Origin: Pseudomonadota bacterium
GTDB taxonomy: Bacteria; Pseudomonadota; Alphaproteobacteria; RF32; CAG-239
Direction of reading: 5' to 3'
Length of the DNA: 38,216 nucleotides
NCBI GenBank assembly: GCA_918234285.1
Contig: CAKJXZ020000007.1
Span: forward strand, 1 to 38,216
The notes under the pieces are model-generated. The model did not search any database, was not told the DNA's origin, and was given only the letters and a program-made list of their open reading frames with translations. Every line of letters starts with the position of its first letter. Position 1 is the stretch's first letter. Below are positions 2 through 38,216 of this stretch, one piece after another. Made by a program: the position numbers and the translations under genes.

Positions 2-226
2 AGTCAGTTGATTATTGTTGCACGAAAAATATGCGCCGACTTTTTGCGGTGCCCCTTGCAAAGATGTCAATTGATTATTTTCGCACCGAAAATCTCCGCC
101 GACTTTTTGCGGTGCCCCTTGCAAAGATGTCAATTGATTATTTTCGCACCGAAAACTTCCCTCCACGATAACTTTGGATAAATCCGGTAACTTGGTCAAT
201 CCTTTATCACTTAAATCCAAATCTCC
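2..226 (-). CDS. Partial LRR protein frame (21-aa repeats) running off the left edge; no convincing start, so possibly a 5'-truncated or silent cassette
   Basis: Manual translation 226->2: GDLDLSDKGLTKLPDLSKVIVEGSFRCENNQLTSLQGAPQKVGGDFRCENNQLTSLQGAPQKVGAYFSCNNNQLT, which fits the LRR LxxLxLxxNxL-type pattern. No in-frame ATG. The upstream GTG (262-260) lies inside the lon terminator stem and an in-frame TAA is at 268-266. Confidence 0.8.
3..155. repeat. 63-bp-period tandem repeat (about 2.4 copies) encoding the LRR units
   Basis: Units start at 3, 66 and 129; 34-92 and 97-155 form an exact 59-bp direct repeat. Confidence 0.95.
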
Positions 227-249
227 AAAATTTATATTTTTTTTGATAC

Positions 250-281
250 AAAAAAGACTCACCCGTTATGAGTGAGTCTTT
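250..281 (-). terminator. Intrinsic terminator of lon
   Basis: Minus strand AAAGACTCAC-(9 nt)-GTGAGTCTTT running into a T tract, about 20 nt after the lon stop. Confidence 0.85.
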
Positions 282-299
282 CTCAACAACAAAATATGA

Positions 300-2663
300 T
301 TATTTTTTCGTCTTTTTGGAGCCTTTTTTACGCAAGGCAATTTCCAAAACTTCCGAAGCTGACGAAACCGGAACAATCTTCATTCCCGATTTCACATTGT
401 CCGGAATTTCCGCCAAATCCTTCATATTTTCCTTAGGGATTATCACGGTTTTGATACCACCGCGCAATGCCGCCAACAGCTTTTCCTTGAGGCCGCCAAT
501 CGGCAACACCCTGCCCTGCAACGTAATCTCTCCGGTCATCGCCACATCGCTCTTCACCGGCGTTTTAGTAAACACCGACACCAGCGTGGTATACATGGCA
601 ATACCGGCCGACGGTCCGTCTTTCGGGGTCGCGCCCTCCGGCACATGAACGTGAATATCTGTTTTATCGAACACTTCCGGCTTAATCCCCAGTTCCTTGG
701 AATGCGAACGCACCACCGAATACGCGGTTTCTATCGATTCTTTCATCACATCGCCGAGCTTACCGGTTTGCGTAACTTTGCCTTTGCCCGGCATATCCAC
801 CGCCTCGATAAACAGAATATCGCCGCCGACTTCAGTCCAAGCCAAACCGGTCGTAACTCCGATATGGTCTTGCTTTTCCGCTTCGCCGTAACTGAAACGA
901 CGTACCCCGAGATATTTATCCAAATTCTTCGGCGTCACCTCCACCTTGATGCACTTGCCTTTTTCCAGCAAAATTTCTTTGGTGGCCTTGCGGGCGATGG
1001 TTGCCAGTTCGCGCTCCAAATTACGCACACCGGCCTCCCGCGTATAATAACGAATAATATCGCGGATAGTATCGTCGGTTATCACCAACTCCGAGCACTG
1101 CACCGCATTTTCATCAAACACTTTGCCGATGAGGTGCCGCTTGGCGATTTCAACCTTTTCATCTTCGGTATAGCCCGACAGCTGAATAATTTCCATACGG
1201 TCCAAAAGCGGCCGCGGCATATCAAGCGAATTGGCCGTGGTCACAAACATCACGTCAGACAAATCATAGTCAACATCGAGATAATGGTCTTCAAACGTGT
1301 TGTTCTGCTCCGGGTCCAATACCTCCAGCAGCGCCGAACTCGGATCGCCGCGCCAATCGTTGCCGAGTTTATCTATCTCGTCCAGCAAAAACAGCGGATT
1401 GGAAACACCGGCTTTTTTCATAGATTGCACGATTTTTCCCGGCATGGCTCCGATATAGGTACGACGGTGTCCTCTGATTTCCGCCTCGTCACGCATACCG
1501 CCGAGTGATGCCCGCACAAAATTACGGTTGGTGGCACGAGCTATCGACTTGCCGAGCGAAGTTTTGCCCACTCCCGGAGGTCCCACTAAGCACAAAATCG
1601 GTGCCTTCAAATTTTTAGAACGTGACTGCACCGCCAAATACTCGACTATGCGCTCTTTAACTTTTTCCAGTCCGTAATGGTCTTCTTCCAACACCGCGAT
1701 GGCCTTTTCCAAATCACGATTGAGTTTGGTTTTCTTATCCCACGGCAAATCCAAAAGCCAATCCAAATAATTGCGAACAATTGAGCTTTCCGGTGTATTC
1801 GGTCCCATGCTCCGCAATTTTTTGAGTTCGGAGAGCGCCTTTTCTCGCGCTTCTTTAGTAAATTTAGTAGCATTGATACGCTTCAGATAATTACTGTTTT
1901 CATCATCTTCGTCACCGTCATGCAATTCTTTCTGAATTGCCTTCATCTGCTCGTTCAAATAATATTCTTTTTGGCTTTTTTCCATCTGTTTTTTAACGCG
2001 GTGCTTAATCTTATCTTCTACTTCCAGCACCATCATCTCGGTATCAATCAGCTGCAGAATTTTATTCAGCCTGTCTTGCAGATTGTTGGCCTCGAGCAAA
2101 AACTGTTTATCTTCGGTTTTGAGTGACAAATGCGATGCCACCGTATCTGCCAGCTTATCATACTCGCTGATTTGCTTGATTGATTGAATTACATCATACG
2201 GAATTTTTTTATTGAGTTTTACATATTCTTCAAATTGGCTGACAACGGCGCGCGCCCACGATTCCAGCGACTTTTTATCCGGTTCTTCCTGCGGATAACT
2301 CTCGATAGCGGCGGTAATATAGGTTTTATTATCACGAAATGCCGTGATTTTCACGCGTTCCAAACCTTCAACCAGCAACTTAACCGTACCGTCCGGCAAT
2401 TTGAGCATCTGCAAAACATTACACAAGGTCCCGACTTTATACAAATCTTTGGCACCCGGAACCTCGATATCGCCTTTTTTCTGCATAACCAGAACCATCT
2501 CCGAACCCTTATCGTTCGCTTTTTGCACGGCTTCAATAGATTTTTCCCGCCCCACAAAAATCGGCACAATCATTTTCGGATACACCACAACGTCACGCAA
2601 CGGCAAAACCGGCAGAACTTGTTCTTTTTCCGCTGTTTTTTCCTCCGTTTTCTTTTCCTTCAT
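300..2663 (-). CDS. lon: ATP-dependent Lon protease (endopeptidase La)
   Basis: 787 aa; N-domain LPVLPLRDVVVYP, Walker A GPPGVGKT, Walker B LLDEIDK, catalytic PKDGPSAG Ser and GGLKEK Lys. Confidence 0.98.
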   Translation of the reverse strand: MKEKKTEEKTAEKEQVLPVLPLRDVVVYPKMIVPIFVGREKSIEAVQKANDKGSEMVLVMQKKGDIEVPGAKDLYKVGTLCNVLQMLKLPDGTVKLLVEGLERVKITAFRDNKTYITAAIESYPQEEPDKKSLESWARAVVSQFEEYVKLNKKIPYDVIQSIKQISEYDKLADTVASHLSLKTEDKQFLLEANNLQDRLNKILQLIDTEMMVLEVEDKIKHRVKKQMEKSQKEYYLNEQMKAIQKELHDGDEDDENSNYLKRINATKFTKEAREKALSELKKLRSMGPNTPESSIVRNYLDWLLDLPWDKKTKLNRDLEKAIAVLEEDHYGLEKVKERIVEYLAVQSRSKNLKAPILCLVGPPGVGKTSLGKSIARATNRNFVRASLGGMRDEAEIRGHRRTYIGAMPGKIVQSMKKAGVSNPLFLLDEIDKLGNDWRGDPSSALLEVLDPEQNNTFEDHYLDVDYDLSDVMFVTTANSLDMPRPLLDRMEIIQLSGYTEDEKVEIAKRHLIGKVFDENAVQCSELVITDDTIRDIIRYYTREAGVRNLERELATIARKATKEILLEKGKCIKVEVTPKNLDKYLGVRRFSYGEAEKQDHIGVTTGLAWTEVGGDILFIEAVDMPGKGKVTQTGKLGDVMKESIETAYSVVRSHSKELGIKPEVFDKTDIHVHVPEGATPKDGPSAGIAMYTTLVSVFTKTPVKSDVAMTGEITLQGRVLPIGGLKEKLLAALRGGIKTVIIPKENMKDLAEIPDNVKSGMKIVPVSSASEVLEIALRKKGSKKTKK

Positions 2664-38028: not shown

Positions 38029-38216
38029 CGGAGAATGCGGTAAATACGAAGGATGATTTTTTCGCCGTAAACAATACAGCAACTAAAAATCCGGAGAATG
38101 TGGTAAATACGAAGGATGATTTTTTCGCCGTAAACAATACAGCAACTAAAAATCCGGAGAATGTGGTAAATACGAAGGAGGATTTTTTCGCCGTAAACAA
38201 TACAGCAACTAAAAAT
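38029..38216. repeat. 63-bp tandem repeat, at least 3 near-identical copies, running off the right edge
   Basis: Units start at 38029, 38092 and 38155 (CGGAGAATGYGGTAAATACGAAGGAKGATTTTTTCGCCGTAAACAATACAGCAACTAAAAATC); only 2 variable positions. Confidence 0.97.

What the first reader, a model, noticed from the sequence alone, without database searches (positions are those of the whole stretch)
2..281. Start-less LRR frame directly after the lon terminator: candidate silent cassette of a variable-LRR system
Seen: the 63-bp repeat at the left edge encodes, on the minus strand, a cap-like GDLDLSDKGLTKLPDLSKVIV followed by 21-aa LRR units (xxFxCxNNQLTSLQGAPQKVG); the ORF track missed it. LRR-like sequence begins abruptly at 226, about 24 nt after the lon terminator. 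There is no ATG and little room for a promoter. The upstream GTG is inside the terminator stem, and the nearby TTG codons are too close to their GGAG/AGGA. The visible frame is nevertheless stop-free. Inference: this is either a decayed gene or an unexpressed donor copy that feeds LRR modules into an expressed locus by recombination or gene conversion, by analogy with lamprey VLR assembly or Neisseria pilS and Borrelia vls cassettes.
Basis: partly seen in the sequence, partly recalled or inferred. Interest (0 to 1): 0.75.

Follow-up and report, generated by a model that had tools for sequence, protein, structure and literature searches.

The report
Promoter-deleted leucine-rich-repeat pseudogene
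This is an ordinary broken gene: a leucine-rich-repeat gene that is complete in three sister species has lost its promoter and its start here through a small deletion, and nothing suggests that it is a stored spare part for an antibody-like system.

Summary
In detail: a stop-free, ATG-less 21-residue LRR frame starts at 226, 24 nt after the lon terminator. The cause is a deletion. Three sister species carry the same gene behind lon with promoter, ribosome site, ATG and a 29-codon leader; the window lacks exactly these 165-166 nt, without microhomology, and 15 nt more just upstream. Contigs of two runs bridge the junction. The 3' half most likely lies on contig C71.
The donor-cassette idea fails its tests: 32 of 33 family copies with a visible 5' end have an ATG, no other locus is over 77% identical across the cap and repeats, and no second copy of this subfamily was found. 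The genome's DGR targets other genes.
The context is livelier than the finding: about 35 paralogous VxGxFxCxxNxL LRR genes with hypervariable strand positions; this one gene seems to move between species and sits behind a poly-G promoter. The scan found similar recombining LRR arrays before, in phages. Verdict: young pseudogene, low interest.

The parts
300..2663 (-). lon protease gene, the upstream neighbour
   Evidence: ORF of 787 aa; Pfam LON_substr_bdg, AAA, Lon_lid, Lon_C above cut-off
250..284 (-). intrinsic-terminator-like hairpin of lon (15 pairs, 5-nt loop, U run); holds GTG262 in its 3' arm
   Evidence: fold, z -3.86; same hairpin in G009 and G050; not listed by the pattern scan
240..249 (-). 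first, smaller lesion: the stretch between terminator and A-rich tract is 15 nt shorter than in the intact orthologs
   Evidence: 34 nt against 49 nt in G009 and G007 and 51 nt in G050, measured from the 3' arm of the stem (alignment)
227..244 (-). A/T-rich tract that lies upstream of the -35 box in the intact orthologs; left flank of the deletion
   Evidence: alignment with G009 and G007
226..227 (-). deletion junction: 165-166 nt missing (promoter with poly-G spacer, ribosome site, ATG, codons 1-29); no microhomology
   Evidence: bridged without a difference by one contig each in runs X1 (126-790) and X2 (127-579)
167..226 (-). remaining part of the N-terminal cap (GDLDL...LPDLSKVI)
   Evidence: translation; 55-60 of 60 nt identical to the three intact orthologs
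2..166 (-). 2.6 LRR units of 21 aa, VxGxFxCxxNxLTSLxGAPxx; the gene runs off the contig and most likely continues at the end of contig C71 (about 7 more units, 89-aa C-terminal domain, stop)
   Evidence: C71 is 92% identical in the repeats and carries the C-terminal domain and downstream genes seen on one contig with lon in G007

Best explanation
A young pseudogene. The ancestor is a single-copy accessory gene inserted between lon and a lipoprotein-recA block, with its own sigma-70-type promoter (TTGACA, a poly-G spacer, TAAACT), ribosome site and ATG, coding for an LRR solenoid of about 350 aa or more. In this strain an illegitimate (homology-free) deletion of 165-166 nt took out the promoter, ribosome site, start and 29-codon leader and fused the A/T-rich upstream tract to codon 30; a second 15-nt loss lies just upstream. 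Transcripts from lon should stop at the terminator, so the remnant should be neither transcribed nor translated. The frame is still open because the lesion is recent. Shown: the deletion, its content, its presence in contigs of two runs, the intact orthologs, the uniqueness of the start-less state. Inferred: silence, recency, the join to C71, and that loss is favoured or tolerated because the gene is dispensable (absent at this site in the closest relative).
For: Intact orthologs behind lon in G009, G007 and G050, 3 of 3 with promoter-like boxes, GGAG and ATG. Deletion 165/166/166 nt, microhomology 0, longest direct or inverted repeat at the breakpoints 4-5 nt. The missing promoter and start were not found elsewhere in G000: only paralog leaders at 71-90% over 24-61 nt and short A-rich hits; pattern search 0 sites in G000. 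Junction bridged in X1 and X2. 32 of 33 scored copies in G000 and 44 of 44 in chosen regions of six relatives have an in-frame Met upstream. C-terminal domain has one strong match in G000. G001, nearest in lon (93.0%) and recA (93.5%), has lon followed directly by the lipoprotein gene.
Against: No stop or frameshift in the visible 75 + 234 codons, so decay has not spread. Silence is not measured. X1 and X2 come from one study and one may be the source sample, so the allele may be local; the bridging contig in X1 has depth 5.7 against 10.4 for the next lon contig, and contigs drop variants, so a co-existing intact allele is not excluded. C7 and C71 do not overlap; the join rests on synteny and likeness. 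The assembly has 71 contigs and many break inside LRR genes, so a collapsed near-identical copy could be hidden.
Confidence: 0.85

Rival explanations
1. Silent donor cassette: the start-less copy is kept to feed LRR modules into an expressed locus by gene conversion, as vls silent cassettes or pilS do.
For: Open frame without start. The family does recombine or duplicate: distinct intact paralogs share exact tracts of 78-105 nt, and repeat units of this gene differ in order and content among four species.
Against: 1 start-less of 33 copies, the reverse of a cassette system; 3 of 3 orthologs are complete; best other locus 77% identical over 226 nt and longest exact tract with another gene 32 nt, against about 90% for vls cassettes (PMC11499132 abstract); no second copy of the C-terminal domain above E 4e-6; it retains its C-terminal domain and stop.
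Confidence: 0.04
2. Still an expressed gene: read-through from lon and translation from GTG262, TTG220 or TTG199 give a shortened LRR protein.
Against: Strong hairpin upstream with GTG262 inside it; no usable spacing for the TTGs; no promoter match in 1-700; the lost leader forms a confidently predicted beta-hairpin cap in a paralog model (residues 9-18, pLDDT about 94) and is present in nearly all relatives.
Confidence: 0.05
3. The deletion is one of two alleles in a mixed population, or an assembly slip, and most cells hold the complete gene.
For: Lower depth of the bridging contig in X1 (5.7 against 10.4); in X3 one 146-nt contig matches 120-226 and goes on for 39 unlike letters past 226, which could be a leader-bearing copy.
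Against: Two samples give the same junction with no differing letter and no loose end listed at 226/227 (31 loose-end rows were not shown); the missing piece is not in the assembly; the X3 contig differs at the TKLP codons and may be a paralog. Even if true, the window allele is still a promoter-less remnant.
Confidence: 0.06

Closest known systems
LRR class with the highly conserved segment VxGxLxLxxNxL (Miyashita et al. 2014, as cited in PMC8181103)
   Same: Units read V-x-G-x-F-x-C-x-x-N-x-L, which fits the motif with F and C at the two L places as the review allows; 195 units in G000.
   Different: The variable segment (TSLxGAPxx), the QDGKTYNLYDLP-type leader and the C-terminal domains were not compared with the four classes of the original paper, which I could not read.
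Listeria internalin J (PDB 3bz5) and the LRR domains of SspH1/SspH2, YopM and IpaH
   Same: Short-repeat bacterial LRR solenoid; sequence hits of a paralog at E 5e-15 to 1e-3, NCBIfam hits far below cut-off, Foldseek E 3e-4 and weaker; InlJ shares 21-aa units with a cysteine ladder (entry title).
   Different: Likeness is limited to the repeats; query TM-scores are 0.46 or lower; no ligase domain, no cell-wall anchor seen; none of the curated cut-offs is approached.
Borrelia vls and Neisseria pilS/pilE silent-cassette systems
   Same: A start-less stretch of a variable-repeat gene.
   Different: One start-less copy among many complete genes, no contiguous cassette array, no near-identical expression site, and the start-less state is a strain-level deletion.
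Lamprey variable lymphocyte receptors
   Same: LRR modules whose strand positions are hypervariable on a fixed scaffold.
   Different: Genes are complete in the genome and several are inherited nearly unchanged between species (6 of 25 with 85-98% identity and equal length in G001); no incomplete germline gene with donor cassettes.
Neisseria porA-type phase-variable promoter (poly-G between -35 and -10; PMC7864442 discussion)
   Same: The intact orthologs have 7-8 G between TTGACA and TAAACT; the same promoter form occurs at 15 sites in 9 of 50 genomes with spacers of 13-16 nt.
   Different: Switching is not shown; the window has lost this promoter, so its allele cannot switch back by slippage.

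Membership tests
vls/pilS-type silent cassette system | One expression site and many silent copies | tested here: not met
   32 of 33 scored copies in G000 have an in-frame ATG; only the window copy lacks one; 44 of 44 in chosen regions of six relatives
vls/pilS-type silent cassette system | Cassette about 90% identical to the expressed gene | tested here: not met
   Best other locus 77% over 226 nt; the only hits near 90% are on C71, its own likely 3' half; longest exact tract with another gene 32 nt
vls/pilS-type silent cassette system | Cassettes in contiguous arrays, architecture conserved among relatives | tested here: not met
   Single gene between lon and a lipoprotein gene; complete in 3 of 3 orthologs
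vls/pilS-type silent cassette system | Unidirectional segmental conversion seen within a clone | not testable with these tools
   Only assembled contigs were available for the runs that hold the locus
Lamprey VLR-type assembly | Incomplete germline gene completed from flanking LRR donor cassettes | tested here: not met
   Family genes with both ends on a contig are complete, with leader, repeats and C-terminal domain
Diversity-generating retroelement target | Template repeat matching the variable region except at adenines | tested here: not met
   The DGR on C27 matches two regions of C27 (86-88%); best non-adenine identity to this gene 48% and 56%; adenines at silent positions of the repeats are not randomised, e.g. 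CAA in 34 of 36 units and no CAG
Site-specific or repeat-mediated promoter excision | Direct or inverted repeats at the breakpoints | tested here: not met
   Microhomology 0; longest shared word 4-5 nt within 25 nt of the breakpoints
VxGxLxLxxNxL-type LRR | Twelve-residue conserved segment with Gly after the first Val | tested here: met
   Consensus of 40 homologs; Gly at the third place in 165 of 195 units; motif definition from PMC8181103
VxGxLxLxxNxL-type LRR | Solenoid fold with parallel strands | tested here: met
   Model of a complete paralog, pLDDT 95.9, pTM 0.88, strands at 21-residue period; nearest solved structures are LRR proteins. The window gene itself was not folded
Pseudogene | Disabling lesion relative to an intact ortholog | tested here: met
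   165-166-nt deletion of promoter, ribosome site, start and leader
Pseudogene | Secondary stops or frameshifts | tested here: not met
   None in the visible 75 + 234 codons; fits a recent lesion
Pseudogene | No transcript or protein | not testable with these tools
   Needs RNA or ribosome data from a sample that holds the strain
porA-type poly-G phase-variable promoter (intact orthologs) | Homopolymer between -35 and -10 | tested here: met
   G7, G8, G8 in the three orthologs; TTGACA with TAAACT at 16-17 nt spacing occurs before three long ORFs in G000
porA-type poly-G phase-variable promoter (intact orthologs) | Tract length varies within a population and changes expression | tested here: inconclusive
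   Lengths of 6-9 G among 15 sites of different genes and species; none reaches a 17-nt spacer; no within-population or expression data

The most novel reading that the evidence does not exclude
The lon-linked gene is a population-level contingency locus for a variable LRR binder: switched by slippage of a poly-G promoter spacer, diversified on its strand face by shuffling of its own 63-bp repeats, and traded between species of the genus at a lon-recA exchange hotspot. The window allele is a locked-off state whose still open repeats can be recycled when recombination brings in or meets a complete allele from another cell. It belongs to a repertoire of about 35 LRR genes with a shared basic C-terminal tail that may be an export signal.
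Probability: 0.2. Interest if true: 0.55.

Novelty: new member of a known kind. Interest (0 to 1): 0.2.

Why it matters
The finding itself matters little: it is a promoter deletion in an accessory gene. It is a useful caution that a start-less open LRR frame at a contig edge can look like a donor cassette until orthologs are aligned. The surroundings could matter more. Two species of an uncultured alphaproteobacterial genus hold 30 or more LRR genes with hypervariable strand positions while most of the 50 genomes searched show none by DNA likeness, one member appears to move between species, and a shared poly-G promoter sits before unrelated accessory genes in 9 of 50 genomes. If these are exported binders under phase variation they would point to an unknown partner (host cell, protist or phage) and give a first handle on how these bacteria live.

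Tried and rejected
DGR as source of the repeat variation: first suggested by NNT/NNG codon patterns and by a DGR on C27; rejected. Repeat-mediated excision of the promoter: no repeats at the breakpoints. Search for more strains with a 19-nt cap pattern: 0 of 15 metagenome loci held this gene; 3 of 8 genome loci did, all complete, and they are not counted on top of the three orthologs because both tools draw one genome per species from the same release. Expression: no RNA holder listed. Run X5 did not cover the locus; X3 is ambiguous; contig depth was not used as a measure. The terminator pattern scan found nothing; the fold was used instead. Pfam gave only a sub-threshold LRR_4 hit for the window peptide (E 0.0012); PHROGs gave two families of unknown function. 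Atlas look-alikes are hypothetical proteins, several from tailed phages, with a recognition value below the tool's threshold: a lead only. Literature: searches found no paper on this family in this genus (the taxon terms were my guess from memory, not a result); PMC3765393 was opened and not useful. In one search the output was cut, so the DNA after lon was not seen for several of the 20 loci. Long shared tracts that are only contig-end overlaps (C20/C69, C24/C70, C50/C14/C39, C38/C69) were dropped from the exchange argument.

Full report
Observation. The window is the whole of contig C7 of a 2.0-Mb, 71-contig assembly. On the minus strand lon ends at 300. A 15-pair hairpin with a U run follows at 284..250 (z -3.86; the pattern scan missed it). 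From 226 to the contig edge a frame of 75 codons reads as a cap and 2.6 units of 21 aa; the 63-bp repeat is real (92% matches). There is no in-frame ATG; GTG262 is in the stem, TTG220 is 2 nt behind a GGAG and TTG199 abuts an AGGA.

The family in this genome. A six-frame scan gave 38 cap motifs. I dropped one false hit (C23) and one second cap inside a long C3 protein; three more are cut by a contig start. Of the 33 left, 32 have an in-frame ATG and a leader ending in a QDGKTYNLYDLPDGFVI-like motif; 31 of the 33 also passed a simple ribosome-site pattern (C44 has the ATG but failed the pattern). The window copy is the only one without start and leader. In 20 regions chosen from hit lists of six relatives, 44 of 44 caps had a Met upstream in frame and 40 matched the leader pattern (a lenient test, not an exhaustive search). 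Most genes lie in short tandem arrays and end in a basic helical tail such as AGYAAFKKKQAEERE. The repeat fits the published segment VxGxLxLxxNxL (PMC8181103, two passages read; the original paper, Miyashita et al. 2014, was seen only as a reference line). A complete paralog models as a regular solenoid (pLDDT 95.9, pTM 0.88) with the leader as a beta-hairpin cap; nearest solved structures are LRR domains at weak scores. A homolog search returned 4503 proteins among 8000 candidates scored; the few names shown are 'hypothetical protein'.

What happened at 226/227. Searching relatives with lon plus the remnant showed two genomes (G009, G007) with the same LRR gene beginning at the same boundary; a search of 50 genomes of the genus added G050. 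In all three the gene is complete at its 5' end: A/T-rich tract, TTGACA, a run of 7-8 G, TAAACT, a GGAG site, ATG and 29 codons, then the cap. The window joins the A/T-rich tract directly to codon 30: 165 nt are missing against G009, 166 against G007 and G050, with no microhomology and no repeat above 5 nt at the breakpoints; a further 15 nt are missing just behind the terminator. The missing promoter and start were not found elsewhere in the assembly. One contig each from runs X1 and X2 bridges the junction without a difference. These two runs belong to one study and one may be the source; X3 is ambiguous and X5 does not cover the place.

The rest of the gene. The end of contig C71 carries about seven more units, 92% identical in DNA to those of the window, then an 89-aa C-terminal domain and a stop. 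G007 has lon, the gene, this domain, a lipoprotein-like gene and recA on one contig; C71 continues with the same two genes; G001 has lon followed directly by them. So C7 and C71 are most likely neighbours broken in the repeats, though they do not overlap. The domain has one strong match in each of four genomes of 50 (88-100%) and only weak ones elsewhere. The names lipoprotein and recA are my reading of the translations and come from no family search.

Test of the cassette idea. A vls system has one expression site and contiguous silent cassettes about 90% identical to it (PMC11499132, abstract and outline read); VLRs are assembled from donor cassettes (PMC12264053, start of abstract in a listing); pilS donors feed pilE (PMC13321361, start of abstract in a listing). 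Here the ratio is reversed (1 start-less of 33), the orthologs are complete, the best other locus is 77% identical over 226 nt, and the longest exact tract between this gene (either half) and any of the other 39 gene pieces is 32 nt. Intact paralogs share much longer tracts with each other (for example 102, 97, 90, 89, 81 and 78 nt after removing contig-end overlaps), so the main family does recombine or duplicate, but this gene stands outside that pool. Six of 25 G000 genes have a counterpart of equal length and 85-98% identity among 28 genes of G001, the others 46-81%: an inherited family with uneven turnover, not a programmed assembly. The genome holds a DGR on C27, but its template matches two places on C27 and not this gene.

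How the intact gene behaves. Among 36 units from the four orthologs, the F, C and N codons are invariant, while the places before and after F and the two after C take 7, 7, 8 and 5 residues; 29 distinct six-codon combinations occur and the order differs between species (one unit is cut by an assembly gap). The same four places have 3.1-3.6 bits of entropy in 195 units of the genome. From general LRR structure these should line the concave face; I did not compute that. The promoter and leader are 99.5-100% identical over about 203 nt among three species whose lon genes are 88-91% identical; the C-terminal domain differs at 2-7 of 89 codons silently, lon at 55-90 of 300; the nearest relative lacks the gene, and the next gene downstream ranges from 58 to 89% identity in a pattern unlike lon. 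I infer recent transfer at an exchange hotspot; no tree test was run. The poly-G promoter form occurs at 15 sites in 9 of 50 genomes, none in G000, with spacers of 13-16 nt, mostly before unrelated accessory genes. It resembles the porA promoter, where tract length sets the spacing (PMC7864442, passages read). Switching is not shown.

Setting. Earlier notes on phage arrays of similar 21-aa LRR genes reached the same kind of verdict, an inherited recombining family and no assembly machine; they are not independent support. Searches found no paper on this family in this genus; the library lacks most subscription papers and no supplements were read.

Verdict. Observation confirmed; interpretation half right. 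Best explanation: recent promoter-and-start deletion in a dispensable LRR gene (0.85). Rivals: mixed alleles or assembly slip (0.06), residual expression (0.05), donor cassette (0.04). Interest 0.2; new member of a known kind. The bolder reading, a phase-variable, repeat-shuffling binder gene traded between species and locked off in this strain, is not excluded (0.2; interest 0.55 if true).

Noticed in passing
window 38029-38216: A second, unrelated 63-bp tandem repeat (3.0 copies, 98% matches) at the right contig end, upstream of pyruvate kinase; one frame is open on each strand (units such as ENVVNTKDDFFAVNNTATKNP on +); not an LRR.
   Followed up: no
L065 (G000 C27:8233-11841) and C27:32119-32229: A diversity-generating retroelement: reverse transcriptase of 343 aa, a 178-aa gene at the place of the accessory gene, a template repeat and two variable regions on the same low-GC contig (86-88% identity, mismatches mostly at template adenines).
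   Followed up: partly
L050-L064 (nine genomes of the genus): A shared promoter form, TTGACA - poly-G spacer - TAAACT, at 15 sites before LRR and other accessory genes, spacer 13-16 nt; candidate phase-variable promoters; none in G000.
   Followed up: partly
L068 (G000 C71:20000-24255), L021, L022, L024, L044: The lipoprotein-like gene between the LRR gene and recA is 58-89% identical among five species in a pattern that does not follow lon or recA: the lon-recA interval looks like an exchange hotspot.
   Followed up: partly
L066, L067, L069 and L094-L103: Most LRR paralogs of G000 and G001 end in a conserved basic helical tail (AG[YF]AAFKK...ERE); G003 has another tail; possible export signal, untested.
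   Followed up: no
G000 contigs C36, C38, C70, C21, C69, C44, C46: Distinct intact paralogs share exact tracts of 78-105 nt in cap or C-terminal parts; many contigs break inside these genes.
   Followed up: partly
L021 (G007 C37), between lon and the LRR gene: G007 has another terminator and about 140 extra nt before the shared upstream sequence, which resumes inside the hairpin found in the window: a trace of how the gene came in.
   Followed up: no
proteins P0007, P0009, P0010, P0024, P0030, P0032, P0049, P0068, P0102: The same repeat is fused to the C-terminus of 490-550-aa proteins with varied N-terminal parts; Atlas look-alike clusters are largely from tailed phages.
   Followed up: no
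L111 (G042 C36:11000-14500): A more distant member of the same subfamily (47% identity in the C-terminal domain) lies complete at another locus, with no lon in the stretch fetched.
   Followed up: no
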